Positions 9,447-38,713 of a stretch of 40,620 bases of DNA are shown in pieces. The translations under genes and the position numbers were made by a program. The stretch's first letter is position 1, and each line of letters opens with the position of its first letter. The notes below the pieces were generated by a model. It was not told the origin of the DNA, searched no databases, and saw nothing but the letters and a program-made list of their open reading frames with translations. The stretch comes from Spirogloea muscicola (Eukaryota): NCBI GenBank assembly GCA_009602725.1, contig WELB01000029.1, positions 689,522 through 730,141 of the forward strand, in the 5' to 3' direction.

Positions 9447-11390
9447 GGCGTGCACAACAGCAAGGAGCTCTTGCTCACCCGTAGCATACTTACGCTCTGC
9501 AGGACGAAGCAGGCGACTCTCAGATGCTACAGGGTGACCTCCTGCAAGAGACGGCACCAATGCCGATCAAAGAGGCGTCACAGACTACTTGAAATGGCAC
9601 GCCTTCTCGAGACAAGGCCAAAACGGGTGGGTATCCGGGTAGGACTAATTTATATCCTTAAATGCCCTCTGGCATTCGGACGTCCACATCCAACATACGT
9701 CCTTACGAGTGAGCTTCGTAAGAGGAGCTGCCATACTTCCGACCCTTACAGGAACCTACGGAAGTGATTTGCGAACTCCAAGAAGGAACGCAACTGTGGC
9801 ACATTTCGAGGACAGTTACAACCACAGTCCTTTACAACTACGCTCTCTAAAATGTCCCCTCCGTCTAAGCGTGCCAGCGGTGCCGGTAACCTTACATGAT
9901 CGTATCGTATCTACCGATTTGAAGTCCCAAACGGGTAACTTCGCTGCACTTTGTGCAGCTGAGTGTGGGCTGAGACCCTGGGCACGTGTGGCACGCGCCA
10001 CATGCTGCACGCGCGGCATGCGCCCCGCGGCACGCACTGCACGCGCCACGTGCGGCGCGCGCCGCGCGCAACACGCGCTCGGTGACTCGCCTTTCCATTC
10101 GTCCCGCTCGCGCCACGCGCAGCACGCGTCACGCGGCACGCGCTGCATGCGCCACACGCAGCACGCGCCAGTCCCCTAGATTCGTATTCCTGTATCCCCA
10201 TTCGTCAGGCCCGCTCCTCCAGGGGAGGCCCTTTGGGGCTACCCTCGTCACACCCTCTGGGAAGGGGCGGCAGGAGAAACAAGAAGGAAGCGCGGCCAAA
10301 TGAAGTGGTGGCTGTGAGAGGCCACCCCAAAGGAATGGACAAGGTCTTAAGGAGCCGGAGTGCTAAGTGCTAAGACAGCAGCCAGGAGACTCTCAGTAAC
10401 CTCTAATCGGTAGATGCAAGTCGGAATAGCTAGCTGGCGGATAGACGTCGCCCTGATGGAAGCCGGAGGCCCCAGCCAGAAAATGAGAAACGCAACAGGT
10501 AGTGGGCCGAGGCCAGACTCCTCACTCCGACCAACGCCGTGAGAGACACAGCTTTGCTGCTGCCTAGCCAGCCCCGCTGCTGCCTGCTGCCGCCGCCGCT
10601 GCCACAGCTCTGCTGCGGCCGCCTACAGCCCAGCCCGTCGCCGCAGCTCGTCGCTGCGGGCCCCACCGGCTCTCTAAGTCTAATGGTAGAGTCACCTCCC
10701 TAGAGCGGTGCCTCAGGGTAAGACTTTCGTTGCGCTCTGTGCGCGTATGTGCGTTGGCGTTATCCTGTATGAGGGTTGTCTCCAAAACACCCCTATATTC
10801 GAATCCAAACCAGGACATTCTGACCCTGACTGTGTGATGAGGGACAGGGATGCTACAGTCTTGATGGGGTTGACGCGAACCCCTTTGTCACAACATGCCC
10901 TATGTATGTTCCGGCTGGTTACACACACTTAGGTTTCTTGAGATACAACTCATTTTCACGCAGCAATTGCAGCACTTGCCGCAGGTGCCTCACGTGATTT
11001 TCGGGCGTTTTACTGAACACCAGTATCCTATCCAATTTCAAATGTACCAAATCATTCAGTAAAGGCCCAAAAGCTTTCATCATCACAACCTGACACCGTG
11101 GCAAGTGTGTTTGGTGAAAGCAAAACGACGCATTTTGCGTCAGGTGTAGCCAAGCGGCCAACAACAAGCCGACTACTGAACCTCCTCAGGTGTGAGACAG
11201 GAATGATCATCACCACTCTGCCAAGCGAGGAAGCTTTACGCATAAGCTTCAGTAAGATGAGTTTACAGATCATCAATGCTTACAGAAGGTATGCTATCTT
11301 GACAGTGAGCTCGCTCAAAGCTCATATCGATGCACATCCGAAGTCTCCAGCTTTCGTCACAACGAAGAGGATTTGCACCGCACGATAATT
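9447..11390 (-). pseudogene. Older Gypsy element RT-RNase H remnant, host of the nested insertions
   Basis: 9447-9830 is collinear with RNase H/RT at ~2594-3085, and 10858-11390 is collinear with RT at 3095-3180 plus 3850-4295 (LDRILVFSKTPENHVRHLRQVLQLLRENELY). Confidence 0.85.
9853..10857 (+). mobile_element. Solo LTR, family C (left boundary uncertain)
   Basis: Interrupts the RT of the older element. The 3' part (10560-10857) carries the shared LTR core and ends GGGATGCTACA. No clean TSD was found. Confidence 0.65.
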
Positions 11391-11407
11391 TGTTAAGAAC
11401 CATACCA

Positions 11408-12063
11408 TGTATCGTTCCCACTTACTGTGACCATTACCCCTACGCTTACCTAATTGGCACGTGGCCGACCTGGCCTGACCAGGCGGTCCCGTACGGGGGC
11501 CTCGGTGACGCGGTGTCCACCCCGGCGCCCCGCGCAGAGGGCCGCGGTGGCGCGGTGTCCACCCTGGCGCCCGGCGCACGGGGGCCGCGGCGGCGCGGTG
11601 TCCACCCCAGAGGACTCGACACGTCGGCCCCGACAGCGGGGCCTTCCCCTCGACAGGCCTGCCCCTCGGGGCGGGCCATTGGGCAACCCCATGCGCCCCG
11701 AGAGGGGGGGCGGCACCGGGAGCACTAGGAGTCGGGGGGCAGAGACACGGACAGCAGTTCGGACCCGTGAAGCCCTGAGTGCGGCGCAGCCCTGCTGCTG
11801 CGCCTGCTGCTGCAGCCCGTCGCCGGCAGGACGCTGCCGGCTCGCTGCAAGGCGTCCGTGGCCGGCCTGTGGTGGGCTAGCTGCGGGCTGGTGCCCGAGA
11901 GGAGGAGACGCCGCCGGATGGCGGCGCCACAGGGCAAGACTTCCGCTGTGCGCCGAGGCGCGAGGTGCTTTACGGTGTGAGGATATGCTCCTAAAACCCT
12001 GCGTCCGAGCCGACCAGGACTTGACCGCGTAATGCCTGTGTACAGGGGTCGGGTCACACTACA
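11408..12063 (+). mobile_element. Solo LTR, family D
   Basis: TGTATCG...CACTACA termini, TSD TACCA/CACCA, shared LTR core at ~11760-12020. Confidence 0.85.
11495..11608 (+). repeat. Tandem repeat of about 42-43 bp (~2.7 copies) in the LTR U3
   Basis: GCGGTGTCCACC recurs at about 11510, 11552 and 11595 within similar GC-rich units. Confidence 0.85.
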
Positions 12064-13507
12064 CACCATGTGATTGCACAAAATTAAAAGCAGAGTCGGG
12101 GAGAGACTCTGTGCGCATCAACACGATGCGATACACAGCCAGAGCTGGTGTTTGGTGAGAGTACGTTTTCAAGTACAACGTTCTGGCTCAGCTTGTCAGG
12201 ATGCTACCCAAAGCAATCTCATACAGGTCAACCGTCTGAGACTGTGTATGAGGATAGGACGCTACACTTCAGGCTGGCCTATTCTTCTCTGCTTTCAAGT
12301 AACGGCTATTCATTTAGAGTAAATTTGATCAGTGTATTGAAAGTGGTACGTGAGTTGGCTTTAGAACGTCGTGAGACAATTCGGCTTCTATCTACCGTTG
12401 GTCATAAGAGACGATTGAAAGAAATCCACCCTAGTACGAGAGGACTGGGTTGAATCATCTCATTCACCGTTGTAATATCAATTGCATTGCCGGGTAGCTC
12501 GTTGGAATGGGATGACTGCTGAAAGCATCTAAGCGGGAAACCCTTTTTAAAGCAGATTTTCAGAAACCAGTGGAAGACTCTCACTTTGATAGGCGAGTAG
12601 AAAAGCATGGCGACATGTGAAGCTTTCCCGTTCTAAAACCCGCTCTTCTGTTATTATACGTATATCGCTCAATTGTTTGACTATATTTGGATTTAGTATG
12701 ACTATATGATAAATCCAAAAATGCCGCGCTCAGAAATCGAGAAATAGATGGCGCGTTGGCTCGTGGCGCGATCGCTCGCTTCGAACATCATGTCAGTGGT
12801 CATTGGTTACCTGACTAAGATGTGCGGTCACGTGCTCTTACCTCCTCCGTGCTTTCTAACGTGAGAGTGGCAGAAGACGGGCCAATGTCCGGAACTGTGG
12901 CTTGCTCATCTGTAACGTTCCGACCATTTGGGAACGCCAAAAGGTGCTGGTAACGCTACATGCCCGTGCATGTAGCTGGTGGCAAGTTCAGGGGGCTGCC
13001 AAGCTACAATACCTCTAGCCCCTTGACGGGCAAGCGGCCCGCCTAGGCGCCTACGGGTCCGTCTCTCCTGGAATGACCCTCGCCAGGACCAACCTGCCAA
13101 GGGTGGACCTTGGGCCCGAGCACGGGCAGGCCTTAGGGCGACCCGCTCACACCCCTGGAGGGGGGGGTGGCACGGGAGAATCACCAGTAGTCTAGGGCCG
13201 AGACCCGACCTCGGGGGTTAAGAGCGGTGAAGACCGGGGGCAGCCTTGCTGCTGCCTCCCGCCGCAGCCGCCGCCGCAGCCTGCTGCGGCCTGCTGCGGG
13301 GAGTCCGTGGCTGCCTCTTCGGGAACAGCTGCTGGCTTGTGCCCAAGAGGTGAGTCGCCGCCTCACGGCGCGCCACAGGGCCAGTCATCTGCTGCGCAGA
13401 TGCGCGTGTGCTTTGCCGTGTAGAGGGCTGGCTCTACATCCCCTACAGCCGAACCCAACACAGACAACTCCCCCCTAATTGCGTCTGTAGGGGCGGTTTA
13501 TAACAAT

Positions 13508-13517
13508 TGGTATCAGA
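13508..13517 (+). other. Primer-binding site, tRNA-Met type
   Basis: TGGTATCAGA 2 bp after the LTR CA end at 13505. Confidence 0.85.
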
Positions 13518-15490
13518 TTTTTTGCATCTTTCTGGCCCGTGTTCTCCTGCGGCTGATGATGCAAGGATCCGTCTGATGCTCTGGCCTGACTTGTTCGAGT
13601 AGTGTATCTCGCCAGACATTGGTCCATGGTGCTGCTAAGCGGGGTCGGCAGGTGCTACGTCATCTTGCCCCCTCGAGGCAGCACGACCATCGGCATTCTG
13701 CCAGACTGATCGTTTGCGATGAACACCTGCTGCTAATTGCCTACTTGAAGGTGGGAATTGGAACCTACAGCCGTTGAGTGGCGAGTTCGATCGTGTGACC
13801 AACATCAATCAAGTGCATCAATTTTGGTCCTATCTGCAGGTTCTGCCTGCCTTGGAGGTATGGATTAGCGCGCTCTCTTGCTTGCTCGCCATCTGGTGCA
13901 CCAGTATTGCGTTGCCTTGCACTACGGTAGGGAGGAGGGATATCCTGACTATCAGAAGCTGACTTTATCCCACGACTACCTTAAGACGGCGGCATGGAGT
14001 CACACAACTCAGTGCGCGTCCTAGTCCTTCTCGGCCGTGGAGCAGCCGGCTGCTGTGGATCAGATGGCTGACGAGCTAGCCGAGCTCGGGGCCGCGGGCC
14101 AAGAGGGCCTGTCGGCTGGGGAGATGCAACATGTTGCACTCCTGAAGGAGCCCTTGAGGCAGCCAAGGCTGTGCTGCACCGTCCTCGCACATCCTACTGG
14201 GGGCGTTGTGTGAGGAGGGGCGAAGCTTGCTTTGCTAGCTTCATACCGGCGAGAGGCATTATGCAAGGGGTCAGGGTTGACGTGCTTCCGATGTGCCCAA
14301 GCCGGGGGCATCCAGCGCATGGACTTGCCAGGGCCGCCCAACTCCAGCAACACGCTGGTCAGTCCCGGGGGTGGACTCAAACGTGGCTCAGCGGTATTAC
14401 TTGAGTGGTTCGTGCTGAGTGGCACGGACGTGACGGCAAGAGTGCAGCTTGCCGCCACTTCTTTCGTCGGCGATCCCCGTGAGGGGTATGACTCCCTGGA
14501 GAAGATTGCCACACTTGAGGTGTACAACGCCGAAGTCCTAATCGGGTGCGCTCACTACGTGTGTTATGAGACGTGGGGAGCTGAAGGCTCGTGATGAGCT
14601 GGATGCTCTCCGTATGCGCGATGACTCAGACGACTATGTGCGGCGATTCGGGCTGCTGGTCAAAGCTGCGCAATGGGCCTATGAAGGCTGCCAATTAGTG
14701 CTAGCGCTTTGAGGCTGGGCTGCCCGAGCCAATGCGGAGGTGCATCGCTCTGGACCTCACCTCGCAGGTCTTGCCAACTTGCCTTGGCTGGTGGACCACG
14801 CCAGGAAGGTGCTGAACACTTAACCAAGTGTACTGGGCAAGCGCTCCCTGCTTGAGGTGGGAGTATCTGCTGAGGCAGAGAGGGGACCAAATAAACTTCG
14901 ACCCAAGGAGGGACTGAATATTCGTCCCATGAAAGCCTTGGAGAAGCCAGCACTGTAGGGGAATGGTTGCTTCGCTGCAGCGGCGATCAGAACAACCTCG
15001 TCCAAGACCCATGAGTATCTGATAAGTGGCTTGGGTATGGGCCTGAGCACATCACGTGGAGCCTGCGGCCAGTCTGGCTATTTGTCCGCCTGCTCTCTGG
15101 GGATACCTAGCCAAGGTTGGTGATTACCTAGGCTTCGTCGAGGCCGCAATCGGTATTACCTTTCGGCTGTTTCATCGTTTGTTCCCGAGGATGTGAAGCT
15201 GGGGGTGAGGTATATAATGTTCCGACCATCCGATAACGGAAAAAGGTGCTAACGCTAGCTACATGCCCGTGTATGTAGCCGTCGGCAGATTCACGGGACT
15301 ACCAAGCTACGGGCTTGGTAGTCAAGCTACAGGCTTGCCCGTCAAGCTACACGCTTGACGGGCAAGCGGCCCGCCTAGGTACGGGCGGTCCGTCATTCCT
15401 GGTATGATCCTCGCCAGGTCTGCCCTGCCAGGGATGGACTTTGGGCCTGCCCACGGCCAGGCCTTGGGACGACCCGCTCACACCCCTGGA

Positions 15491-15661
15491 CCGAATTCCG
15501 ATCTGCCATCTGGTATTCGGGCATTGATTAGCGACCCCCATGTACTGACCCGTGGTAATTGAGCGGGTCAATTTACAATGGGTGATGTACGTCATTAGAT
15601 GCGCTTGCCTTTGTACTTGGCCACCTTGGCCTTCGTTTTGTTTCAAACACACTAAAATGGT
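15491..15661. mobile_element. 171-bp insertion of unknown class in the 3' LTR
   Basis: Absent from the 5' LTR and from solo LTR 8638-9200. Flanked by the 6-bp direct repeat CCTGGA. Confidence 0.75.
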
Positions 15662-18600
15662 CCTGGAGGGGAATGGCAAAGGAGAAGCACTAGTAGTCTG
15701 GGGCCGAGACCCGACCTCGGGAGTTCGGACCCGTGAAGCCCGGGAGCAGCCTTGCTGCTGCCTGCCGCCGGAGCCGCCGCCCCAGCCTGGTGCGGGCCTG
15801 CTGCGGGGAGTCCGTGGCTGCCTCCCTTCGGGGACAGCTGCTGGCCTGTGCCCAAGAGGTGGAGTCGCCGCCTGACGGCGGCGCCACAGGGCCAGTCTTC
15901 CGCCGCGCAGATGCATGTGTACTTCGCCATGTAGAGGGTTGGCTCCTGAACACCCTACAGCCGAACTCAACAAGGACAAATCATCCTAATTGCGTGCGAA
16001 GGCGCAGTTCGTTATATCATCCATGCTGATTGGCTGCTGGAGAGCAGGCAAGCGCATGGTATCGAGCTTCTTTAGTCCCTCGGCAGAAGTGACCTTAGAT
16101 GTGACTATATTGCATACTGGAAGGTGAGTGTCGCTGGAAAGGCGGCCTAGACTGGTAGTCGCAAAGGGTCCATCAGGCGGACGACTAGACGAGATTGATC
16201 GCTTCCTCGTGCAAATAACAGCGCACCTGAACTCGTTACTCGCGACAGCAAGGTGCCGGCGCCAGGAACAGCGATCTTACGGATACCACCCCTTCAGCAG
16301 TACTGTCAGCCGCCGTCAACGTAAACGGTAAACGGCAAAACATTGCCGATGATATTCAACCGTGAAGCTAGACTGCTGGTGGTGGACCGCTGGTCGCTGT
16401 GGATTGGCCGGTGACGGCTAATCGATGCAACCAATGGTTTGATTACGTCAAGTGGGAAGCCCAGATCTTGGGAGGCTGCTCGGAGGGCTGTACGGGGAGG
16501 ACATGAGAGGGAGGGGAAGGTCGATAGTAAATCACCAGGTACAAGTCGCTCGCACACCAGGTACAAGTCAAAGGACGCCACAGCCGCAGCATTGCATACT
16601 TCGATCTAGTGGTGAAAGCGAGTGGCTCGGTAACACGAACCGTACGTGAATATGATAAGGTCAATGATAATTCTTCATGTTACCTGCTTGCTTGTATCTA
16701 AGCTATTTCCGGCCCCTTCAAACCTTGTCCATATATCGGGCTAATTTTGAAGCCATCGCCTCCTTGGGTAATTCTCTTCATTATGTGGTGATACAGCTAC
16801 CAAACGGACAAGTTGACGGGGGGAAGAGTTGCCAAAAAGTCACACATTGCTTATGCCAATACGGGTGTCTCAAAGGTCAACCCTTGGATAGACACGAGTA
16901 TTCGAAGTCTGCGGTATTGTAGGTAGGCCAGCAGAATATCTAGGATCTCGGTGGGGTACGTGTTATGCGACCTGTGGCCCGATTGTGGAGCTTCAAACAC
17001 AGATCTGTGGCAGACCCGACTTGTCCGCTCTCACATACAGCCGACCTGAATGGGGCGCATGCGGGTGGCTAGCTTGGCCCTCATTAAGCCGATCCACACA
17101 GCTCTTTCCGACAAGGAAAGCAGTGCGCAGTATAAGGGGAGACGAAGATGCTCTTCTGTGCAACAACCATTAGCTTTTGGCAACCTACGAGCTATTGTTT
17201 TAACGACCTCTCCAACCTTGAAGCCCTACGGACTTGTGGCTGTCTAGCCTTCCAACACCCTCATTTGCTTTCTTCTTCGATGCTGCCGCACAACTACGTG
17301 GTAGTAGCCCGCTCATTAACTGCGCACGGTCGTGCTCAGGCTTGGCCATTTGCACGTGCATACATGCTCTTTAGAGCTTGCTTACTGGCCTCGTCGGACG
17401 AGCACGAAGCTGGCATGGTGAATGTTGCATGCCAAAAGGCACATAGTAGCGCTGGTTTCCTAAGTCTCAGCAACCAAAATTACGAACTGTCTTAGCAGGT
17501 AGTGCCACTGGAGGTGTCGCTTCACCGAAGGAGAGCAAACTGTCATTCAACCACCCAACAACACCTCCATACAATCATCTGCTCATCGACTTTCACTTCC
17601 GGATATAAGGGAGTGCTCGGAAGGAATCTTTCAGAATCACGAGGGGAGGGTGGCCGTAGCAGTATACACTTCCGTGGCTGATCTCTGGGAGCCGAAAATT
17701 GATGGCTGCAGCCAAACATGGGGATGACCTCCTTCTCGTCGGCCCAGGTCGGCGCACATCGAAGCCCGAATATCGGTCACACAGTAGGACTAATACAGAA
17801 CGGCGATCACAGCTGGCAAATAGCAGATCAACCTTGTTCTCATGGAGCCACCGTGTGAGCTTCCAAAATGATCAAGTGCACGGTGGGCTGTTAGTCAAGG
17901 AAGAGTCTGTTGAGCCCTGAATGTTGCACCTTCGTGAGCTCCCGACAGTTGCCAAGTGGTGTGTGCGAGCCACACCATCAATGGAAGGTGATATGTGAAA
18001 GTTGTGAGCACGACATTCCTGCACGGTGAGAGGCCAGATAGCAGCATTGGCAAGGGGCTCGTTCGAATCACGTGCGCAGTCTGCATTGTATGGGAGGGAG
18101 GCCAAAGCAAGCCAGTGCACAGATTGTATAAAGAGCAAGGAAACAAAGCAGGAAAGCATCGAGGGGACTGTAGTACCCACCAGTGAGCACATCCATATCA
18201 GCCAGACTAATCTGAAGTGTCGGAGTACCAGTTTGCAAGCCAGTGGCCTGGCTTAGTGCATGGCCAGCATGCTGAAGTAGGTCTCTCGCAGCAAGGACGA
18301 TCCTGGCTTTCGGACTTCATAGCGAGGTAAAAAGGTTTACTTGCTGACTCGGGGTTGTGAGCTGTCGAGACGATGAAATGGGAATGCTGTAACGTAGGCC
18401 AAGTTACGGAACCTCAGTCGTGTTACTTGGCTGGGGTGGCATACAATTGAAAGGCACAATGATGCAGTTGCCTACCCAGAGGTCATTCTTATAACACTAT
18501 TGGAGACATAGCAAGCCACTCTAGGCTCACTCAGGAACACTCAATGTATCAGACTGGGCTGGCTAGCTGGCCCATTCTATGTTCAGTTCTATGTAGTGCA

Positions 18601-18814: not shown

Positions 18815-21184
18815 TTACGTCAGCATGAGCTTTTTGTATCTGAAGTACCACATGATCCCAATGAAAATGAGTATGCCAGAGATACCCGTTAAACCAATAA
18901 CCCATTTAAAGGCGTAAGGATTTTGCTCCAATCCTAATGGGATGTTCATACCAAAAACTCCAGCAACCATCCCATAAATAGCCACCACAAGAGTGACAGT
19001 GGTCATGAGCAACTCAAATTGGATGAGCTTATTGCGCGTGTTATCCTGCAAGGCAAAGAACCAGGTGCCAAGACACAAGGTGAGGTAGCTCAGCCCATGC
19101 AGCTTATCAGAGTAGCAAATTATGTGTAAGCACGACCATGAGCTAGCTCTCTGTACACCGAGCCCATCACAACAGCAGATGCTCACCAATTGGATATTGA
19201 TGAAATCTTCCGTGTCATCCGTGTACTCCTTCAATGCTGTGAGCTTGTTGAGCGTGGAGTCAATAACAACAAAATAAGCCTCCAAAAGCATCTCCAACTC
19301 CTCAACACTCTCCTGCTGAGTTGTGGCACTGCTTTCGCTCCCTCGTTGGCTCACATAGCTCAGCGTGCGATCCAAAGCCGCCGAGCCACCCCCATCGCCT
19401 CTTCCCTAGCAAAGTGAACGATACCCACCCATGAGCATCTGACCCCGCAATAGTTCGTCGGAGCACGAGCACGAATTCCTCAGAGCGGGTGTGATCGGGG
19501 GCCCACTCCATGCGAACGCGGAGACCCGACGGGTGAGACGGGCGCAGAGAAGGAGCCTCCAGCTCCTCGTGAAAGAGACCCGAAGGCTGCTGCCATGTCA
19601 GACGTGGATCGAGGAGCCGGTAGCAAGGCCTCCTTCTTCTCCGTCAGATACATTTCAACCATGTCTCCATCATCATCCATCAGCTGCTCGATCTCGTCCC
19701 GTACCTGCAGGCCATGACAATAGCAGTACGGCCTCACACGTGCATCTACGGAATTGAAGGAAGCACACATTTAGGAAGGATGCGAGGAGCAGATCAGCAC
19801 CTTCTGCACTCGCCGTGTAAGTGCCACTAGACGGCTTTTGAGCCTGCGGACACGCTCTAAGTTGAGGGTGCTGATGACAGAGCAGAGCTCGTCGAGCGCG
19901 GGATAGGCTTCGCCTTCCAGCTCCGCTGCCTCTTGTCCACACCCCACAAAGCCCGGCCCGTCTTAACGGGCAGTTGCCATACGTCATGACATGCACTGCC
20001 TGAGTACAGAGTGACCGGCACGATCGGCCAGCGGAGCCCGAGTAGGTGCCAGCATGCACCTGCGAGTCCAGGAGAGTGCAGGCGCCCTCGAGAGCGACTT
20101 CCAAGGCACGAAACTCAAATGGCAGCTCCTCGCCGAGGCTACTGCTCACGGCGTGGCTGCTGAAGGTGTCTGTCTCGCTGGGCTGATGGCTGCAGATGCA
20201 AGCAAGATGGATATCGTGAATTACGATGTTTCCATGGCCGTGGGGACCCAACCAGGCCACGGCACAAGGAAGCCGATGCCGATGGTCATCCCCAGCCAAG
20301 CGGCAGTGGATGAGCTCACCGGTGGCGAGGCTGGGAGTCTGCCTCAGAATGCGAGTCGGAGGTCGTGGAGGGAGGGCCCATGCGCTCGCTGCCACCCTGT
20401 GGTGTTCTGCAGGGGGTCGTGGGCACCACTGGCGAAGCTGAGCCAGCGAGAGCAAGCCGAGGCAGGACGCAGCCATGGCAGCAACAGCAGAGGCAGGGCG
20501 GTCGGTGAGAGTGGGAAGGGCAGGGGCAGGGGGCTGACCGCCACGACACAGCCGGCCCCTCGGACGCCAGCTGGGCTCCCGACTGCTTCAGGCGCCGCTG
20601 GAGCTCGTGCACGTACTGGGCCCGGCTCACAGCGCATCGCCAAGGCGGCCTCAGCGCCCCGCCGAGCTCGACGGCACGACGCGGTCAAGGCCCGCGGGGG
20701 CAGAGTGGCGGCGGCGGCGAGGTGCTTCCCTCACCTGGAGAACAAAGTGGTTGAGCGTGTTGAGGAGCAGGACCTCGTCGGCGGTGATGATGCAGCGGAT
20801 CTGCTCCAGGTTCACAACGATGGCCTTCTCGCGGCCCAGCAGCGTGCTCGGGTACACGAACAGCGGGTCCAGCAGCCGCATGTCCCGCGCCGGCAGGTCG
20901 CACCTGCGCACCCCCGCCGGCCCCGCCGCGGCCGTGAGCAGCAGCTCCAGGCCGTGGCCAGCACCGCAGTCGCCGCTCTCCGCCGTCCCGGCCGAAGGCG
21001 GCAGCAGAGGGAGGCGGCGCACCGGCGCATGATGGAGAGCTTGTCCACCTCCATGACGTGCGCCGCGCCGGCGCGGTCGATGCGGATCCACGACCGCAGG
21101 CCGTGGCCGCGCTTCTTCAGCCCCGCCAGGTCCTGCCCGAACGCCGCCGCGCCGCCGCCCGCCGGCGGCAGCGGCGGCATGGCC
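18815..21184 (-). CDS. MRS2: MRS2/MGT (CorA-family) magnesium transporter, MRS2-1-like, multi-exon; 5' end may extend into the gap
   Basis: GLKKRGHGLRSWIRID, CDLPARDMRLLDPLFVYPSTLLGREKAIVVNLEQIRCII, LPFEFRALE, VEELEMLLEAYF, and two TM helices with the GMN motif (FGMNIP). GT-AG introns. Stop at 18815. Confidence 0.95.
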
Positions 21185-21453
21185 NNNNNNNNNNNNNNNN
21201 NNNNNNNNNNNNNNNNNNNNNNNNNNNNNNNNNNNNNNNNNNNNNNNNNNNNNNNNNNNNNNNNNNNNNNNNNNNNNNNNNNNNNNNNNNNNNNNNNNNN
21301 NNNNNNNNNNNNNNNNNNNNNNNNNNNNNNNNNNNNNNNNNNNNNNNNNNNNNNNNNNNNNNNNNNNNNNNNNNNNNNNNNNNNNNNNNNNNNNNNNNNN
21401 NNNNNNNNNNNNNNNNNNNNNNNNNNNNNNNNNNNNNNNNNNNNNNNNNNNNN
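21185..21453. other. Assembly gap covering the divergent MRS2/GDPD 5' region
   Basis: Run of N. Confidence 1.
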
Positions 21454-23324
21454 CGGCGCGGGTGCTGGTGGGCGGGCACCGCGGGCTGGGCATGAACCTG
21501 CCGCCCGGCGGGGACGTAGCGGCGCAGCGCTGGCCGCGGCCCACCGTGCGCGAGAACACGCTGCCGTCCTTCGCGCGCGCCGCCGCCGCCGGCGCCGACT
21601 TCGTCGAGCTCGACGCCCAGGTCCGCGGCGGCGGCGGCGCAGCGCCACCCGCCATGGCCATGGAGGAGCTGGCGGGCTGATGCGCTGCTCCTGCGGGCCG
21701 TACTACGGCGCGGCGCAGGTGACACGGGACGGGCACGCCGTCGTCTTCCACGACAACCTCGTCCTCACGGCCGACGGGGTCCGCCTCCTCCGCCTCCCCC
21801 GTCCCTTGCGGAGAACGACGCTCGAGGCGCGAGCGCCGCCTCATGCCGCGGCCGGCGGCCCAACTCGCTGCCGCAGGATGCCAAGCCAGTGGCGGAGCTG
21901 ACGCTGGCCCAGTTCCGCGGCGTCGGGCCCCAGCCCGACGGCTCTGTGAGTGCTCCCAAGCAAGTCCTGCTCACGGTCAAGGGCACGACCCATGGCGGCC
22001 ACCGCTTCTGGAGGCGCTGTGTTCGGCCGCAGTGGAGCCCACACTGCCCCTGCCTTTGACTCACATCCCAGCCTAAGCCGCCCACGCCTCCTCTGCGCAG
22101 GACGGCAGACAGCTGCTGCGACGGGGTGTCGACGGCCGGCCGGGCGTGTGGAAGGAGGAGGTGGAGGGGCCCCTGTGCACCCTGCATGAGGTGCTGGAGC
22201 AGCTGGACCCGCGCGTCGGCGTCAACGTTGAGGTCAAGTTCAATGAGCTGCAGCCCGTGGGCGAGGCGGAGATCGACCGCCTGCTCCACCCCATCTTGGC
22301 GGTACGCCTGCATACGTAGCCACATTCATCACGGGAGCCTCGTGTCAAGCTCATTGCTAGCCCCAGCAAAGTGTCTTACTACGCTGTTTAAGTGGTGCTC
22401 ATGCAGACTGTCAAGGAGAGCGGCAAGAAGCGCAATATATTCTTCTCTACGTTCTTTCCCAGCGCGGCCACCTCGCTGCGCAAGCTGCAGGACGATCACC
22501 CTGTAAGTGGCTCTGCAAGCTCAGAAGTATGGCAATGCTCTCAAGGCAGCTCCCGAGCGAAGTGATGCTCTTCAATGGTGCGGAGCAGTGTGGATGTTTA
22601 TATCGACCACAGGTCGCCCAGTCCCGATTGTCCCACTAAGTTGGCATTTGATCTCTTACAGGTTCTATTCTTGACTGGAGGTGGAGCTTACCACTTTGAA
22701 GATCCACGCATGAACTCCATTGCTGCAGCTATTGAGCACTGCGTGTCCAGTAGGTGTTTCGAACACAACGGGCATGCTCCTTGAGGGGCCAGAACTTGCT
22801 CACTTCCAGAATGCTTCAGTGGCAGCCTGCCTGCTCTTCCCCAAAAAAGCCCGTGGCCATGTTGCAGGCTCTTGACAGGTATCAGGTATGTGACTTTCCA
22901 GGTGGATTGCAGGGCATTGTGTCAGAGGTTGCCACGGTGCTACAGCATCCTGAGCAGGTTGGGCAGGTCCAAGCAGCTGGACTACACTTACTCACATATG
23001 GTAAACAGAAGTGAGCACCGGCCACCTCACATATCCTGCAGCAAGTGCAGGATAGGATTGAGCTCTACTTAAAGAGATGCTTTCTTTGTGGATAATGCTC
23101 CAACACCTCTTGGGATATCCACAATTGTTTCTTGCAATGGCAAGTCTGCTCTCGATGGGCTCTGTCAATGCGGCTACTTCACGAACTGATATGAGTGTCT
23201 GGCTCGCTGCAGCAACGACCTTACTGCAGTGCTGTCCCAGCAAAGTCATGGAGTCTACGGTGTCATTGTTGATTGCGTTGAGAGAATAGTGGAAGGCATG
23301 CGGGGGAGCCCTACCCCACAGTAG
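21454..23324 (+). CDS. GDPD: Glycerophosphodiester phosphodiesterase (plant GDPD1-3 type), multi-exon, start in the gap
   Basis: VGGHRGLG...RENTLPSF...GADFVELDAQ|VTRDGHAVVFHD, LCTLHEVL...GVNVEVKF, LLTYGKQN|N...GVIVD. Stop TAG at 23322-23324. Confidence 0.93.
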
Positions 23325-24377
23325 CACTGCTGCCTCATGACTGCAACAGTAGGTCGACGGTGATGGTTAGTTCAGGTCTGCTGCAGTACTGCCGTTTAGG
23401 ATATGGCACCTGTTTGAGGAGCGAAGTATGCTGCTGACGGCTCAGGTCTGAGTGGTTAGAGATCCCCACAATAGCCTGTGAAAATGATCAGCATGAGTAT
23501 CGGAGGTGAAGATGTTGGGTGCTGCATGATGCTGGTACCCAACTTGAGCCTGGGTTGCTTATTGTGGCCACGACAAAGCCACGAGGATTACAGTATTCTG
23601 ACATTCTTTGAGGCTTGTTTCACCTTACCAATAGCAAGGATGGCAAGTTCTTGAAAGATTGTCTTTCACTGCTCACTGCAGGAACGGCAATTCATCCGCA
23701 ACATAATCTCACATGCTCCATATGTATGCAAGCTCTGATTGACGACTACATAGTTGAGCAATTCAAAAGTTAGGATTGCATCTCTTGTTTTTGTTGATGT
23801 CATTGTTTTGAATTACGGACGAAGAGTATTGACTACGTATCTTCTGCTTGGAAAGCAGACACTTCGAGATCAATCTATTGGCTGGAAACGAAAGAGTATT
23901 CTAGACCTTGATGAAGGCAGAGGAATTTGGAATACATGATCGATGACTGTACAAGATTTGGATTTCTGCATGTAGTCAATATGTGCAGAGTGAATTGGTC
24001 CCTGATGTTTGTGCATTGTTGGCCCACTACAATACTCCCTGGTAAAGTAATCCTTGAGCTGATTTAGCAGGGGTACATGCAATGCTTTCCATGCAGTGTG
24101 CGTGCAAACAAGACTACTGAAGTGCACGAGACAAGACCAACTTCATCGTCCGAGTCCTATTGAAGCTTCCACCTGACTGTTGCCATGCACAAGTTCGCCT
24201 CTTTGCAACCTTGTGTAAGATTTCACATAGAGGGGAGTTTTGACTACAAACAGACCCGCAGGCATTCATCTTAGACTCTGCAACATCCTCAACGCACGTG
24301 ACCAATGTCTCAAGTGCTGGCAGTGCCAGTGATGGCATGTTCAAGGCAAGCCTAACCTTGAGCACAAGCAGGACAGC

Positions 24378-27300
24378 TCAGTAGGGTCGATAGCCATTTT
24401 GACTGGGTGGCCGATGAGGTTGCCGTGCTGGCCCATATCCCCTCCCACCAGACCGTTGCTGCTGCGATTGTGGAAAGTTCTGATAGTGGTGATGGGGTTG
24501 GTCAGAGGCATCCTTGTCCTCTTTGCGCTTGTGCTCGACCTTCAGCGTCCTACCTGCAAGTACTGTGTTGTGAACCCCAGCAAGAGCTCGTTCAGCATCC
24601 GCAGAGGAGGCCATAGTCACAAACCCTGTAAGCAAGCCATTCCCCGCCAGAAACGTGCGAGCAGGCAAACAAGAGGCATCTTAGTGGCCGAACATCAATT
24701 CTTAATTGGTTCAAGTCCTGATTAGCTCAACATTAATGTATCAGCAGAGGAGGAGTTTCATCATAATAGAGAATATTGTGCACACTAACCAAAGCCACGC
24801 GTTCGACCAGTCTTCTTGTCCACTCCCATCTTGGCAGTATTCACAGTGCCATGTGAAGAGAAAAGGTCTGCTAACTCCTGGTCTCCGAAGTTGTCCGGCA
24901 ATCCAAATACAAACAGCTGATTGCCTGACAATCACCAACAACTTCTTAACCTTGATTAGTAAATTCTGATCTGGTCAGAGTCAAGGGGTGTGCAAACATG
25001 CCTGCCGCGAAGGAGAGGCAGCCTGCCTGTGGAAGAGGAGGGTGACAAGGGCAGTGCCGGAGAGGTTTTTTGGCCTCTGTCTGAAGCGGGCGAGCCCGCT
25101 TGAAGGTGAAGCACCGGTGCTGCACTCACTGCAGAAGCTCAAAAGCCGAGATCAAATTTCAACAGATGCTAGGGCAAAGTGGTCTCGATGTGTGCGATCA
25201 ATATATCCAGGTCGATTGGGGCTAATACAGGGCTTCACCATGAGGCTGCACTGCCGGTGGCGCTGAAGAGCGAGCTGCAGGAGTGCTTTCCTGCTGTTGA
25301 TACTGCTGCTGTTGCGGAGGCCCAGAGCTTGGATATGTATGCTGCAGGGGCTGCCCTTCTTGCTGGGGACGGGTCGGCCTCAGCTGCTGTTGAGGAGAGG
25401 GCACAGGATAGGGCGAAGTCGCATGTGGAGAGCTCAAAGAACCAATATAAGGGACGTGGCCATGGTGTAAGCCATGCTTGGCATTCTGGGCAAATTGCTG
25501 CGCCACCAGCTCTGCAGGCTTTTCCCATTGCGTGATGCCTGCCAACACCATGAAGTAGAGGTTCATGTGAGATGAGTCGCGTCATGCCAGCTTCTGGGAG
25601 ATATTGAGTCCAGGGGTTCTTAAAGAGTGTCCCAGGGCGACAGTGTGGACTCGTGCTGACATGACAGAGCTCGTGTTGCATTCATCTGGCCAAGAATGGA
25701 ACAGATGAGCACCACTAGCCTGCCTGCGTTGCCAAGAAAGGAGCTGACCCACAACCCTGGAACAACTCGGACGTGAATGGACACCTAGTGCTTCCTCAAG
25801 CCAAGGCTCGACGGCCTTGTCCTGATGTCCTCTGGACAGAGGCTGGTGGTGGGTTACTCCCAAAAGCCTACTGTGTGCAGATGAGAGCCGCAAGTACATA
25901 CCAAGCATGAACAGCAGGACTTGTCATGAACGCTGATTTGGGAATGAGTCTGATGCTTGCTGATGCAATCTACAAGACTGATGCTGGCTAGCGTGCAGCG
26001 AGGAGGGGGCCATAGGCTTGGAAAGAGAAGGAGAGCTTGCTACCGATGTGAGGGGTCAGAGGAGGGCAAACCAGTTGCTGCGTTGAAGTAGAAGGGCTTG
26101 CCATCGGGTGCCAAATGCTCGGCCCACTGCCGCGAATTGTCAGGGTGGGCCCCTGCGGCCTCGAAGTCCCCTGCGCTCATTGGCGGCACGCTCTCCTGCA
26201 ATTGGCCTCTAGCAACTGTTACAGACAGGTAACAGTAGCCAGCACCTCTCCTATGCTGCCGGCCAGCCTATTCTGCTTCTCTCCTTTTTCTCGGAGGATA
26301 GTGAGCTGGACTACAACATCTCTTGCAACATGTAAACCAGGAGGGAGGCTACTCGTAGTCCGTTGGACAGCACCCGAGAAGTGAATACGGGCATGAAAAA
26401 GTGCTCCCCAAATCTTATACATTGACCTCTCCAGTATGGTCATGACCCTTAACATGACTGACGAGGTTCTATCCGGTGAGTCTCTCATGCCTGGTTTCAT
26501 GGTATTCTCGCTACATCAACAGAATGCTTGGCAGCTACAACATGACGGACCGAGAGTGAGCTCTCTTGATGTATCTCACACCCACGAGACCCAGAGGCAG
26601 TCTTCTGCTCTGCATGCGTACTCCTCTGTACGTGGCCCCACCTGGTAGTCTTCATCACCCAACCTAGCCTGCAAATGTCATGTTTGTCAACTCGACGCCT
26701 ACCGGGGCCTCAACCTAGCATGCAGGCTGCAGTCCCCAACAGAGACCGAGCGACGGCCGTCCATTCCATGCCGCCACTTGAGAGACCTCATTCTGAAACC
26801 TTGTGCCATGCCAGCACACTTGCCCTAGCGGCTTGCCTACTGATAACAGAAGCCATTGACAAAGGCCCAGTGAAGGGTAGATCGCGACTAATGCTAATTA
26901 GAAGTATTTGTAGATCTGTAGTTCCTACCAAGCAAGATGAACGACATCATGAGGCCGTATGGCCTGCACTATCTCACCTCTCCCTGTGTGGAGCTGCCAC
27001 AATTGCTGCCTGCACTAATTACAGACCTTGGCTGCTTGCCGGTGCAAAGCTCCCCCCATAGAGCACTGGAAGTCCTTAATGAGATCACCAATGTCTGCCA
27101 TGACGACCTCTGAGCATACATGTCGAAATTTCTATGCTGGAGCAGAAGCTGCAGCCCAGAGAGCTGGAGTTGGGGGAATGATGTGTGTGGTGCCGTACCT
27201 GGGAAGTGGCGGAGGAATTACTATTAAGCGGCCACCCTGTCGGAGGCGCTCCACGATGTACTCCACCATTGGTCGGTGCAGAATGCGATGCACCCTGCCA

Positions 27301-28229
27301 CTGTGGGCATGCCAGCAGCCCACTGTGACTTTTCCTCGCAGCAGCACCGTGCCAACTGAGGAGCGCGTCAGCAAACGGTGAGCGAGTAGGGGCAAGACTG
27401 GTCAAGCAGTACCGACGAGCGCACCTGCTGGACAACATAGCCATCAGCATAGCCTCTGTGCACATCCTCGGCTGGGTGGCCGTTGTCCTGGGTGCGTGCG
27501 AACTGAGAAGCAGGCTGCGATGGCTGCGGCTGCGGCTGCGACTGCGGCTGCAGCTGCGGCTGCTGCTGCTGCTGCTGCTGATAGCCGAAAGACGTGTTGG
27601 TCTGTGCGAGCTCCGCACGCAGGCGCTCCAGGTCCCGTGCCATGGCCACGAGGCTCTTCTCCAGGCCCGCGCGCACCTCGGCCGCCTCCGCTGTTGCCGC
27701 CTTCTCCGTCTCAAGAGCGGCCCTGGCGTGCGGCAGTGCGTCGAGCTCGCCCTGCAGCTGGCGCAGGTCCTGCTGGAGCATGGCCTCTGAATCCGCGCGG
27801 TGCTGGATCTCCGCCCGTAGCGCCTGCAGCTCCGCCCTCAGAGGCTCTGTGGCAGCCATGGGTGCGCAGGTCAGCCCAATCTCGTCTAGGCGCAGAGCTC
27901 ACGATGCCAGCGGGCACAGCGGCCGGATGCAGCTGGGCCCTCACCGACGGCGCGGAGCTCGGCCTCCATCTGCGCGGTCTTGTCCAGCAGCGCACGGATG
28001 GTGCTGTCCTTGTCGGCCTGCTCCCCAGGCCAACGTCAGCAGCCAGCCAGCCTCTGGCAGCTCGGCAGGGCGGCGGCGGCGGCGGCGGCGGCGGCCGGAC
28101 CTGGAGGGCGTGGAGCGTCTGCTGGTAGCGGCCGAGGTCCTCCTGCGCGTTCCCCAGCTCCAGCTGCAGGCCGCGTTGCACCGCCCCCAGCCGCGCGTTC
28201 TCCTCTGCCAGCCGCGCCATCTCCACGTG
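24378..28229 (-). CDS. FLX-like coiled coil + WW + CELF-type RRM multidomain protein. Exons 28229-28101, 28017-27945, 27846-27425, 27294-27199, 26668-26642, 26195-26072, 25538-25239, 24924-24790, 24625-24378; first exon(s) in the gap
   Basis: FLX signature ARAALETEK...LEKSLVAMARDLERLRAEL. WW domain WAEHLAPDGKPFYFNAATG|ITQWEKP. RRM NQLFVFGLPDNFGDQEL...DKKTGRTRGFG|FVTM...LKVEHKR. All eight introns are GT-AG with matching phases. Confidence 0.8.
27514..27580 (-). repeat. (CAG)n/(CAGCCG)n coding microsatellite encoding a polyQ/QP tract
   Basis: Encodes YQQQQQQQPQLQPQSQPQPQPSQ directly after the coiled coil. Confidence 0.9.
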
Positions 28230-28291: not shown

Positions 28292-28564
28292 NNNNNNNNN
28301 NNNNNNNNNNNNNNNNNNNNNNNNNNNNNNNNNNNNNNNNNNNNNNNNNNNNNNNNNNNNNNNNNNNNNNNNNNNNNNNNNNNNNNNNNNNNNNNNNNNN
28401 NNNNNNNNNNNNNNNNNNNNNNNNNNNNNNNNNNNNNNNNNNNNNNNNNNNNNNNNNNNNNNNNNNNNNNNNNNNNNNNNNNNNNNNNNNNNNNNNNNNN
28501 NNNNNNNNNNNNNNNNNNNNNNNNNNNNNNNNNNNNNNNNNNNNNNNNNNNNNNNNNNNNNNNN
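28292..28564. other. Assembly gap covering the start of the FLX-like gene
   Basis: Run of N. Confidence 1.
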
Positions 28565-28847: not shown

Positions 28848-34884
<6,037 letters not shown>

Positions 34885-35727
34885 NNNNNNNNNNNNNNNN
34901 NNNNNNNNNNNNNNNNNNNNNNNNNNNNNNNNNNNNNNNNNNNNNNNNNNNNNNNNNNNNNNNNNNNNNNNNNNNNNNNNNNNNNNNNNNNNNNNNNNNN
35001 NNNNNNNNNNNNNNNNNNNNNNNNNNNNNNNNNNNNNNNNNNNNNNNNNNNNNNNNNNNNNNNNNNNNNNNNNNNNNNNNNNNNNNNNNNNNNNNNNNNN
35101 NNNNNNNNNNNNNNNNNNNNNNNNNNNNNNNNNNNNNNNNNNNNNNNNNNNNNNNNNNNNNNNNNNNNNNNNNNNNNNNNNNNNNNNNNNNNNNNNNNNN
35201 NNNNNNNNNNNNNNNNNNNNNNNNNNNNNNNNNNNNNNNNNNNNNNNNNNNNNNNNNNNNNNNNNNNNNNNNNNNNNNNNNNNNNNNNNNNNNNNNNNNN
35301 NNNNNNNNNNNNNNNNNNNNNNNNNNNNNNNNNNNNNNNNNNNNNNNNNNNNNNNNNNNNNNNNNNNNNNNNNNNNNNNNNNNNNNNNNNNNNNNNNNNN
35401 NNNNNNNNNNNNNNNNNNNNNNNNNNNNNNNNNNNNNNNNNNNNNNNNNNNNNNNNNNNNNNNNNNNNNNNNNNNNNNNNNNNNNNNNNNNNNNNNNNNN
35501 NNNNNNNNNNNNNNNNNNNNNNNNNNNNNNNNNNNNNNNNNNNNNNNNNNNNNNNNNNNNNNNNNNNNNNNNNNNNNNNNNNNNNNNNNNNNNNNNNNNN
35601 NNNNNNNNNNNNNNNNNNNNNNNNNNNNNNNNNNNNNNNNNNNNNNNNNNNNNNNNNNNNNNNNNNNNNNNNNNNNNNNNNNNNNNNNNNNNNNNNNNNN
35701 NNNNNNNNNNNNNNNNNNNNNNNNNNN
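34885..35727. other. Assembly gap covering the divergent FtsHi1/ribophorin I 5' region
   Basis: Run of N. Confidence 1.
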
Positions 35728-35840: not shown

Positions 35841-38713
35841 ATCGACCTCCGGTCCCAGGTGGTGCGCATTGGCTACTCCATGAAGGTGAGCCGCGGCCGC
35901 CATTGCTGCCCGAGCTCGAGCTCCACTTCTGAGCGCGCGTCCTGAGGCTCGAACCTCTGCCCTCTCCAGGTCGAGAACCGAGGTGGCGCCAGCGTGGCGG
36001 AGCTGCTGCTGGCAATGCCGGCAGCGCAGGCTCAGCATGTGGCGCTGGTGCGGGCTGCGGTCATGGGCAAGGGCAAGGCCAAGGGGGCCGCGAAGACGAG
36101 CCTCGCGGCCGCGCCGGCCACCGTGGAGGGCGCGGCGGCCAATGTCAGCTTCTGGGCGCTGGCGCTGCCGGAGCCGCTGGCGCCCGGTGAGAAGCTGAGC
36201 GTGGAGGCGCTCGTGGCCATCACCGGCGTCCTCGAGCCCTTCCCGGCGGAGATCGGGCAATCCGACAGCCAGCTCGTACTCTTCCGCGACGGCCACTACG
36301 CGCTCTCGCCGTACCCCTCCGAGCGCCAGAGCACGCTGCTGCGCCTGCCCAGCGCCCACGTCGAGTCCTTCACCCCCCTCCCGCCCCACAACAACGCAGG
36401 CAAGGAGCTCACGTTCGGGCCGTACGACAAGGTTCCGCCGCTGGCGCACTCCCCGCTCACTGTGCACTACGAGCACGACCTCCCGTTTGCCGTGGCTGAG
36501 GACGTGGTGCGCGAGATCGAGGTCTCGCACTGGGGCAACGTCTACGTCCAGGAGGACTACAGCTTCGTGCACGCCGGCGCGCGCCACAGGGGCGTCTTCT
36601 CCAGGTGAGTCGATGCAGCTTGTCTATTTGGCTGGCATGACTAGCGGGGTACAATGTGGATCTGGGATATGGCTGAATGATTTGGGAGTCTCATGGCAGA
36701 TTTCTCGTGAGTGGCGCTTTTGCAGGTTCGAGTACCAGTCGCGGCCCCACATGAGCGGCGTGTCATCGCTGCGGGGCCTGCGAGCGCGGCTGCCGCCTTC
36801 GGCGCACTCCATCTACTTCCGCGACGAGATTGGAAACATCTCCTCGTCCCTTGTTCGCTATCACGTCGAGAATGTGGGCAGCTTCGCAAACCCGTTCCCT
36901 TCTGCATCTGCGGCCACAATCTGTGGAGTGGGCAGGCGCCCCGCATCTGCGCTCGAGTTGCCTCTGACCAGGAGTTTGCCTGACTGTTTATGACCTCCCC
37001 GCGGCCTCCAGACGGAGCTGGAGCTGTCCCCGAGATACCCTCTCCTAGGCGGCTGGCGGGCCAAGTTCACAATCGGCTACAGCGTGCCGCTGGAGGAGTT
37101 CGTGTCACGGGCCCCGGGGGGGCAACGAGTCCTCAGGGCCACCTTCAGCACGCCGTTTGAGGACGTTGTTGTCAACAACCTCGTTGTCAAGGTGCTCACT
37201 TTCTTTGGTGCTATCGTCTCACTTCCCTGACACCTCAATGGAAGCACGTCAGAGGAGGACTAGCGGACATTCCCGTCAAGAGGGCAACAACCACACACCC
37301 ATATCGTCTCATTTGGCCTTGACAGTCTCTCTTCGCTTGATAGAGATAGAGCATGGGAAGCAGCGTGATGGAGGCACGATGCAAGCTCATCAAGTCGGCG
37401 TGCCTCTTGTTGAGGGCAACAGGTAGTGCTGCCCGAAGGCTGTTGGGATATCAATGCGGAGGCCCCATACGAGGCAGAGCAGAAGATGGAGGTGCCCCCA
37501 CCTCCTGTCTGGCTGCTGCGATGCTGGCTAGAGCTGCGAGTGTTGAGTCCTTCACTTCTGGGTCTTGCAGCAGCAAACTCTGCAATTCTTGTGATGAGCA
37601 TCGGCTCGCGCTCCTTACCTTACCTTACACAAAGGCCCGCATGCAGACCAAGTACACGTACTTGGACACGATTGGCCGGCCTGTCGTGGTCCTCCACAAG
37701 CGAAACTTGGTGCCTGAACACTCAGAGGACTTTCAGGTAGGCGACTGAGCCCCCTGCCACACACAGGGAGTTGAGCTGGTGTTGGCTAGGCTGGTACAAG
37801 CACCGGCAACCACCCATTATTTCGACGAGATGCGTACAAGGCCTCGTGCTCGGTCTGCAAGCTGGCCCAGAATGAGAGGCGGTGTGTAAGATCTTGTGCA
37901 CCTGCTGTCACATGTGTGCCTGGACGGAGATGTCCACGTGGGTGCCATATTATGTGATGAGCCTTTTCAGCATCATGATGGCACTGCTTCTGCAGGTCTT
38001 CTACCGCTTCAATCCACTGGCGCAGCTCGTGGAACCGCTCCTACTTGTGGCAGCCTTCTTCACTTTCTTCTTGGCCTCCATGGCCTATGTCCGGTGTGAC
38101 TTCACCATTGCTAAGTCCTCCACGAGCTACCAGGCCAAGCTGCAGCGAGAAGAGGTGCAGTATACCCCTCAGTCAGCAAGGCTCGTGGCACGATGCTGCA
38201 CACGGCGCAAGGACAGGGCCTTCCTTAGGGCTTGAGTCTGGGTGCCTTGGTGGCGTGGCTCAAACGCAGGCCTTTACTTCTGTGGGGTTCTGTGTGCAGA
38301 TGATGGATGCCATGCAGCGGCTGCAGAAGGTGATGGCTGTGCGGCTCAGCTTTACCGAGAGGCTGGAGGCTTCGTTACGCGACCTAGTGCGCACCGGCGA
38401 CGTTGCGGCAGCCAAGGCGTCCCGAAAGTTGCTCGAGTCTTCGCTCAAGGACACGGCCAAGGATGTGAAGTCCGTCACCGATGTCCTCGAAGCTTCGCCA
38501 CGCGCGGCGCATGTGCTGCCACGCGTGCAAACGCTGGTGGCCAAGGAGAGGGAGAAACAGGACAAGGTGTTGCAGAAGCACATTGCAACAAGTGATGCAT
38601 TCGAGCGGAAGCTACCACGAAAGGAGATCGATCAACGCATCGCCCCGCTGCAGGAGAAGGTCCTTAGCCTCACTCTCGAGGTCCGCGAGCTGCTCCAGAA
38701 TATCGAGGCCTGA
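35841..38713 (+). CDS. OST1: Oligosaccharyltransferase subunit 1 (ribophorin I), multi-exon, first exon in the gap
   Basis: PFPAEIGQSDSQLV, VREIEVSHWGNVYVQEDY, FSRFEYQ, IYFRDEIGNISSS, PRYPLLGGW, KYTYLDTIGRPVVVLHKRNLVPEH, TM EPLLLVAAFF, and a helical cytosolic tail ending at TGA 38713. Confidence 0.95.

What the first reader, a model, noticed from the sequence alone, without database searches (positions are those of the whole stretch)
24378..28229. One gene appears to fuse an FLX/FLL coiled coil with a WW domain and an RRM (possible FLL2-FCA 'Rosetta stone')
Seen: nine minus-strand exons with canonical GT-AG sites and intron phases 0,1,0,0,0,1,1,1 join without a stop into more than 500 aa, in the order FLX coil, Q/P-rich, WW, Q/P-rich, RRM, RPY*. 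There is no GC-rich 5' island between the parts, unlike the other gene starts here. Known: angiosperm FLX-family proteins lack WW and RRM domains. Arabidopsis FLL2 promotes phase separation of FCA, an RRM+WW protein whose WW binds FY in 3'-end processing. Inference: this organism may hard-wire scaffold, WW adaptor and RNA binding in one condensate-forming 3'-processing protein, suggesting the partnership predates its role in flowering. I cannot tell whether this architecture is already catalogued.
Basis: partly seen in the sequence, partly recalled or inferred. Interest (0 to 1): 0.88.

Follow-up and report, generated by a model that had tools for sequence, protein, structure and literature searches.

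The report
FLL2-type coil fused to FCA tail
This algal gene joins an FLX/FLL2-type coiled coil to a WW domain and an RNA-binding domain of the kind found at the end of moss FCA, a layout shared with a stonewort, mosses and ferns, and it likely does in one protein what FLL2 and FCA do as partners in RNA 3'-end processing in Arabidopsis.

Summary
The fusion is real. Contigs of one run (probably RNA) show or fit every splice from coil through WW to RRM, although no single contig spans the gene. The N-terminus matches a profile of seed-plant FLX-like proteins (96 bits; controls at most 28). The same coil-WW-RRM layout occurs in Chara, moss and ferns (21 of 120 listed hits); no seed-plant hit has it. 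New here: the RRM is not FCA's RRM1/2. It belongs with a third, CELF-type RRM that follows the WW in moss FCA and is absent from Arabidopsis FCA, so the tail is likely the rear half of an FCA-type gene. On coil trees, fused members mix with coil-only FLX genes by lineage (one fused clade rejected, p about 0.001), so FLL2-like genes may be shortened descendants. Function (condensates, FY binding) is inferred, not tested. Databases hold these proteins as hypothetical; nine literature searches found no description.

The parts
28292..28564 (.). Assembly gap (273 N) that probably hides the first exon(s) and true start codon
   Evidence: the FLX profile match begins at profile position 57 on the first residue of exon 1; relatives carry about 45-90 more residues
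28101..28229 (-). Exon 1 (first visible): start of the FLX coiled coil
   Evidence: contig record 8 covers 28107-28225
27945..28017 (-). Exon 2: FLX coil
   Evidence: joint 27945>27846 seen; 28101>28017 is not listed (repeat-masked) but fits the 108 extra letters of record 8 (inference)
27425..27846 (-). Exon 3: rest of the FLX coil, Q/P tract, FLX tail motif YADGY
27199..27300 (-). Exon 4: weak homologue of the FLX-family tail; its donor is spliced on to the WW exon
   Evidence: loose ends at 27425 and 27303; tail profile 9.2 bits, 0 of 500 shuffles as high
26642..26668 (-).
26072..26195 (-). Exon 5: first two thirds of the WW domain; skipped in one contig (27199>25538), which shifts the frame
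25239..25538 (-). Exon 6: end of WW, Q/P/S-rich linker
   Evidence: joint 26072>25538; composition
25027..25128 (-).
   Evidence: joints 25239>25128 and two 102-nt skips at 24921-25024; in frame
24790..24924 (-). Exon 8: first half of the RRM (RNP2, start of RNP1)
24378..24625 (-). Exon 9, coding part: second half of the RRM, Q/P/G tail, C-terminal RPY and stop
   Evidence: joint 24790>24625
24036..24377 (-). 3' UTR, at least this far
   Evidence: a 543-nt contig with 16 other letters (likely a sister copy) runs 24574-24036

Best explanation
This is one spliced gene for an FLX-family coiled coil joined to a WW domain, a single RRM and a PY end, a tail that was likely taken from an FCA-type gene before stoneworts, conjugating algae and land plants split, and the protein likely acts as a nuclear scaffold in RNA 3'-end processing. 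Shown: splicing, FLX identity of the coil, the domains, the spread of the layout, and the placement of the RRM among CELF-type third RRMs that follow a WW. Inferred: a single origin by duplication of the rear half of an FCA-type gene. Predicted, untested: the coil self-associates or binds other FLX proteins and FCA; the WW binds proline-rich motifs such as those of FY; the RRM holds nascent RNA; the Q/P-rich linkers promote condensates; the PY end aids nuclear import (recalled PY-NLS idea). Skipping of the WW exon would give a coil-only or decay-bound transcript from the same gene.
For: Joints coil to WW to RRM; the exon 4 to WW joint is seen in three sequence variants with 0, 10 and 12 other letters. 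FLX profile from 30 coil-only seed-plant proteins: 95.6 bits; reversed -2.0; best of 200 shuffles 3.5; best of 200 heptad-block shuffles 28.0. 21 of 120 listed profile hits are coil+WW+RRM, including named Chara braunii, Ceratodon, Psilotum, Pteridium, Adiantum, Ceratopteris; 20 of 22 coil+RRM hits end in PY, 0 of 94 coil-only. Sphagnum P0093 is RRM-RRM-WW-RRM-PY and matches, by eye, Arabidopsis and Physcomitrella FCA in the supplement of PMC7673134, where Phpat.2 also has the third RRM. Its RRM3 is the best non-fused match among 579 RRMs held (84.7 bits; its RRM1 43.5, RRM2 24.3). Tree 1: 18 family RRMs plus P0093 RRM3 form one branch, 95/93. Tree 2: fused RRMs one branch 85/80 inside WW-bearing RRM3s 89/86; joining them to two WW-less CELFs is rejected, p-AU 0.005. 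Nearest solved WWs are PRP40A, TCERG1 and WBP4. RNP1 and RNP2 aromatics are intact in the window protein. FLL2 is needed for FCA condensates and FCA's WW binds FY (PMC11962161, PMC7673134, passages).
Against: No function was tested. In the denser tree the direct sister link to moss FCA has only 57/56 support, and RRM trees have about 90 columns. The WW alone is no closer to moss FCA's WW (score 106) than to unrelated repeated WWs (104-105) or to alveolate-like FCA-type WWs (116). No intron is shared exactly with moss FCA: the WW introns differ, and the RNP1 intron lies in the same glycine codon but in phase 2 against phase 1. The fused protein lacks RRM1/2, and RRM2 is the domain shown to matter for FCA condensates. 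Fern members have lost RNP aromatics and three lycophyte members have no RRM, so RNA binding is not kept everywhere. RNA support is one run of short contigs.
Confidence: 0.6

Rival explanations
1. The fusion is real and old, but the protein works outside FCA-FY 3'-processing, for example as a splicing or transcription-elongation adaptor whose WW binds other proline-rich partners.
For: The nearest solved WWs are splicing and elongation factors; the WW is not specifically FCA-like; RRM1/2 are absent; FLX itself serves the FRIGIDA activator complex (bioRxiv 10.1101/2021.07.02.450944, passages); RRM decay in ferns.
Against: The WW-RRM3-PY order and the RRM's tree position tie the tail to FCA-type proteins, and FLL2 and FCA are known partners; a fusion of exactly these two families by chance is less likely (inference).
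Confidence: 0.3
2. The tail was assembled from an unrelated WW and a generic CELF third RRM, and the likeness to FCA is convergent.
For: Sister link to moss FCA only 57/56 in one tree; no exact shared intron; WW scores do not single out FCA.
Against: Grouping with two WW-less CELFs rejected; best non-fused RRM match is moss FCA RRM3; WW followed by RRM3 is also the layout in a glaucophyte and in alveolates.
Confidence: 0.07
3. Two neighbouring genes (a coil-only FLX gene and a WW-RRM gene) were joined only on paper.
For: One of three near-identical database models (P0003) starts at a Met in the WW exon; no single contig spans the gene.
Against: Spliced joints across the linker in three variants; no GC/CpG island inside; fused ORFs in fern transcript assemblies (P0021, P0177); two of three models are fused.
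Confidence: 0.03

Closest known systems
Arabidopsis FLL2 and the FLX family (FLX, FLL1-4)
   Same: About 150 residues of FLX-type coil and a weak copy of the FLX tail motif; low-complexity region behind the coil.
   Different: Adds WW, RRM and a PY end; none of the seed-plant hits has WW or RRM. The coil lacks about 20 residues of the profile and is not specifically closest to FLL2.
FCA (Arabidopsis: RRM-RRM-WW; moss: RRM-RRM-WW-RRM)
   Same: Q/P-rich region, WW, then, as in moss FCA, a CELF-type third RRM and a PY end.
   Different: RRM1 and RRM2 are replaced by the FLX coil; intron positions differ from moss FCA. Arabidopsis FCA has no RRM behind its WW.
CELF/Bruno proteins, third RRM
   Same: The best single-RRM matches in the PDB are CELF1 and CELF2 constructs covering their C-terminal RRM (2cpz, 5m8i, 2my7; that these are RRM3 is recalled and fits).
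   Different: Only one RRM; has a WW and a long coil.
Database entries of the same architecture (Chara CBR_g26401, Ceratopteris, Adiantum, Ceratodon)
   Same: Coil-WW-RRM order and, mostly, the PY end.
   Different: Named only hypothetical, uncharacterized or WW domain-containing; no function attached.

Membership tests
FLX/FLL family | N-terminal coiled coil matching an FLX-family profile | tested here: met
   95.6 bits against a profile of 30 coil-only seed-plant proteins; controls at most 28. The local Pfam copy gave no FLX model.
FLX/FLL family | Conserved residues of the coil (N and RL of the first helix, EK and E-x-L of the last) | tested here: met
   Invariant or nearly invariant columns in 49 sequences that include the database model of this locus
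FLX/FLL family | Tail motif behind the coil (Y-x-D-G-Y) | tested here: met
   Weak: 9.2 bits, 0 of 500 shuffles as high
FLX/FLL family | Coil as the only folded domain, short end in RR | tested here: not met
   WW and RRM follow; 69 of 94 coil-only hits end in RR or RK, this one in PY. It is a variant, not a typical member.
FLX/FLL family | Acts with FRIGIDA or promotes FCA condensates | not testable with these tools
   Needs cell biology
FCA | Tandem N-terminal RRM1-RRM2 | tested here: not met
   One RRM only, and it does not group with RRM1/2. Not an FCA.
FCA | WW domain within Q/P-rich sequence | tested here: met
   PF00397 above cut-off; linker composition
FCA | Third RRM and PY end behind the WW, as in moss FCA | tested here: met
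FCA | RRM is the direct sister of FCA RRM3 | tested here: inconclusive
   95/93; 57/56
FCA | WW binds the PPLPP motifs of FY | not testable with these tools
   No FY sequence was held; only the class of nearest solved WWs was checked
CELF/Bruno | C-terminal RRM of CELF type with intact RNP1/RNP2 | tested here: met
CELF/Bruno | Three-RRM layout | tested here: not met

The most novel reading that the evidence does not exclude
The fused form is the ancestral state of the streptophyte FLX family: one gene carrying the rear half of FCA made a long and a short product, duplicates in mosses, lycophytes, ferns and seed plants repeatedly kept only the short coil form, and seed plants lost the long form while their FCA lost its third RRM. 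FLL2 would then be a shortened descendant of an FLX-FCA chimera, and the FLL2-FCA partnership that drives Arabidopsis condensates a relic, in trans, of what was once one chain.
Probability: 0.4. Interest if true: 0.85.

Novelty: new variant of a known kind. Interest (0 to 1): 0.7.

Why it matters
FLL2 is the genetic proof that condensation matters for FCA-directed 3'-end processing, but why a FRIGIDA-complex-type coil works with FCA is unexplained. A natural FLX-WW-RRM chimera kept from Chara to ferns points to a much older link between the two families, names single genes to knock out in moss or Ceratopteris, and gives a ready-made construct for asking whether tethering coil and WW is enough to build a 3'-processing condensate. 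It also shows that moss FCA keeps a CELF-type third RRM that Arabidopsis FCA lacks.

Tried and rejected
No whole genome is held, so I could not look for FCA, FY or coil-only FLX genes in this organism. No run is on record as RNA; X1 is a guess. No cover lay over introns 26240-27189: no evidence for or against a short last exon. Two single-sequence word searches with the coil found only P0001. Pfam gives the coil exons only generic coiled-coil hits. The Atlas did not hold P0001 and gave no usable hit for the fern homologue P0171. The coil homodimer fold gave no verdict (score 0.30, mark 0.32; my alignment was not used): no evidence either way. The AlphaFold2 model is of the fern homologue P0021 on 7 sequences (three long helices 67-285, WW, RRM, disordered linkers; pTM 0.24); I ran no fold search on it. 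The metagenome scan returned 80 loci, none with an FLX coil, so intron positions of other fused genes were not read. Shared introns with moss FCA were looked for and not found exactly. One clade of fused coils was rejected. Simple independent truncation does not explain the shared C-terminal end of coil-only proteins. A proline-rich short ORF at 28815-28734 was considered as the missing first exon and left open. Two look-ups in the scan's earlier findings were empty. Fang et al. 2019 (FLL2) and Quesada et al. 2003 were not held.

Full report
Observation. Pfam finds half a WW on 26195-26072 and the two halves of an RRM on the last two exons. GC and CpG fall steadily from the 5' end with no island between coil and WW. 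A 273-base N gap lies 62 bases upstream of the first visible exon; the FLX profile match starts at profile position 57 on the exon's first residue, so the true start is probably hidden there.

Transcript check. One run holds the stretch, X1, guessed to be RNA and kept as short contigs. It shows joints 27945>27846, 27199>26195, 26072>25538, 25239>25128, a 102-nt skip that fits 25027>24924 with a GC donor, and 24790>24625. The joint 27425>27300 is seen only as loose ends of 17 and 10 letters from either side. 28101>28017 is not listed because a repeat there is masked, but the length of record 8 fits it (inference). The exon 4 to WW joint appears in three sequence variants: 48+15 letters without a difference, and contigs with 10 and 12 differences. 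No contig spans the gene. The revised model is open for 544 aa. One contig skips the WW exon and shifts the frame.

Source and copies. Three EukProt proteins labelled Spirogloea muscicola are near-identical: P0001 (fused), P0152 (fused; WW and RRM identical to the window, with a linker taken from another frame) and P0003 (WW-RRM only). So the window is this alga or a very close relative, and automatic annotation already fused two of three copies but got the linker wrong.

The coil is FLX. A profile built only from 30 coil-only seed-plant proteins, most of them named FLX-like, scores the window coil at 95.6 bits; reversed -2.0; the best of 200 residue shuffles 3.5 and of 200 seven-residue block shuffles 28.0. 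The exon 3/4 region weakly matches the tail of 33 coil-only proteins (9.2 bits; 0 of 500 shuffles as high), which ties exon 4 to the FLX part.

The layout is conserved. A search of 1.84 billion representatives gave three full-length coil-WW-RRM proteins among the best 150 (P0018, P0021, P0027). A profile search listed 120 of 185 hits: 21 coil+WW+RRM, 4 coil+WW, 1 coil+RRM, 94 coil-only. Named fused members are Chara braunii, Ceratodon (RRM cut short in the model), Psilotum, Pteridium, Adiantum and Ceratopteris; three Diphasiastrum proteins have coil+WW. No row with a seed-plant name has WW or RRM. This absence is only moderate evidence: just 7997 candidates were scored, and several of the query's own members are missing from the list. 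No liverwort, hornwort or earlier alga appeared; that shows nothing. PMC7673134 states that FCA and SSF are the only RRM+WW proteins in Arabidopsis (passage).

The tail is FCA-type. Sphagnum P0093 is RRM-RRM-WW-RRM ending in PY. By eye its RRM1/2 and WW match Arabidopsis and Physcomitrella FCA in supplementary files 7 and 8 of PMC7673134; Phpat.2 carries the third RRM, Arabidopsis FCA does not. Among 579 RRM domains held, a set biased by the search that fetched it, the best match outside the fused family is P0093's third RRM (84.7 bits, 49%), against 43.5 and 24.3 for its first two. In a tree of 116 chosen RRMs, 18 family rows plus P0093 RRM3 form one branch (95/93) inside a CELF-type branch (99/92); two of the 18 (P0003, P0151) lack a coil in their records. 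In a second tree of 46 rows with a mixture model, the fused rows are one branch (85/80) inside WW-bearing third RRMs (89/86); the direct link to moss FCA has only 57/56; joining them to two WW-less CELFs is rejected (p-AU 0.005). Against: the WW does not single out FCA, and no intron is shared exactly with moss FCA loci L005 and L006.

History. If the fusion had founded a separate subfamily, fused coils should form one clade. They do not: p-AU 0.00015 with 59 rows and 0.001 with 40 rows after leaving out the algae and two long branches. Moss-group fused coils sit with moss-group coil-only proteins (98/99, 100/99), and both algal members are fused. This fits an ancestral fused gene. However, coil-only proteins of the moss group, ferns, a lycophyte and gymnosperms share a C-terminal end, which independent truncations would not give. 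One ancestral gene with a short and a long product, split among duplicates, fits both; so does concerted evolution of two old genes. Sampling is thin (no FLX or FLL4 rows, no algal coil-only rows), there is no outgroup, and the algal branches are long.

Mechanism. In Arabidopsis, FLL2 is required for FCA condensates and FCA binds FY through its WW (PMC11962161 and PMC7673134, passages). The fused protein has the coil, a WW whose nearest solved relatives are PRP40A, TCERG1 and WBP4 (that these bind proline-rich ligands is recalled), an RRM with intact RNP motifs and linkers with 31-34% Q+P. I infer a multivalent nuclear scaffold for 3'-end processing, about 0.6; that it is one real gene, about 0.97. 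A model of the fern homologue shows three long helices, WW and RRM with disordered linkers.

Novelty. Nine searches of the held library (listings and abstract starts only) showed no paper on this architecture or on a third RRM in moss FCA. I saw passages of PMC11962161, PMC7673134 (plus hits in two supplementary files), bioRxiv 10.1101/2021.07.02.450944 and PMC13695793 (irrelevant). Fang et al. 2019 was not held; its text or supplements, other subscription papers and bioRxiv supplements could mention it. The proteins are in public databases as hypothetical entries with WW and RRM already assigned. Verdict: a real, old, apparently undescribed variant of the FLX family; interest 0.7.

Noticed in passing
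window 27199>25538 (minus): One contig (depth 17.4, 30 letters on the short side) skips the WW exon; this shifts the frame and stops 34 codons later, upstream of four junctions: a coil-only product or a decay target from the same gene.
   Followed up: partly
   Followed up: yes
L005 9136-10950; P0093: Moss FCA keeps a third, CELF-type RRM behind its WW; a glaucophyte and alveolates share RRM-RRM-WW-RRM; 10 of 80 loci show RRM-RRM-WW without it.
   Followed up: partly
P0021, P0171, P0129, P0177, P0192, P0212, P0227: Fern members have lost RNP1/RNP2 aromatic residues, and three Diphasiastrum members have a WW but no RRM: a graded decay of the tail in vascular plants.
   Followed up: partly
P0186: The Ceratodon model leaves the RRM right after the RNP1 glycine and runs into unrelated sequence, which fits a retained phase-1 intron at the same place as in the window gene (inference).
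   Followed up: no
window 28815-28734 and about 28600 (minus): A short proline-rich ORF with PPLP repeats begins 33 bases behind the upstream gene's stop, and a telomere-like AGGGTT repeat lies just before the gap; probably UTR or promoter.
   Followed up: no
window 18818-21300 (minus), 21453-22500 (plus): An MRS2/CorA-type magnesium transporter and, head to head across a gap, a gene whose translation recalls glycerophosphodiester phosphodiesterases (recalled; no Pfam hit on the piece tested).
   Followed up: partly
window 28848-34900 (minus), 35946-38713 (plus): An AAA ATPase gene, probably FtsH-like (name recalled), with a 394-codon acidic last ORF, and a ribophorin I gene.
   Followed up: partly
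window 250-16000: Repeat-rich region with a broken retroelement (RNase H-like domain at 2057-2641).
   Followed up: no
P0229, P0279, P0283: Three angiosperm models join an FLX coil to BRCT (two also RING) domains; a conserved neighbour or annotation joins, not checked.
   Followed up: no
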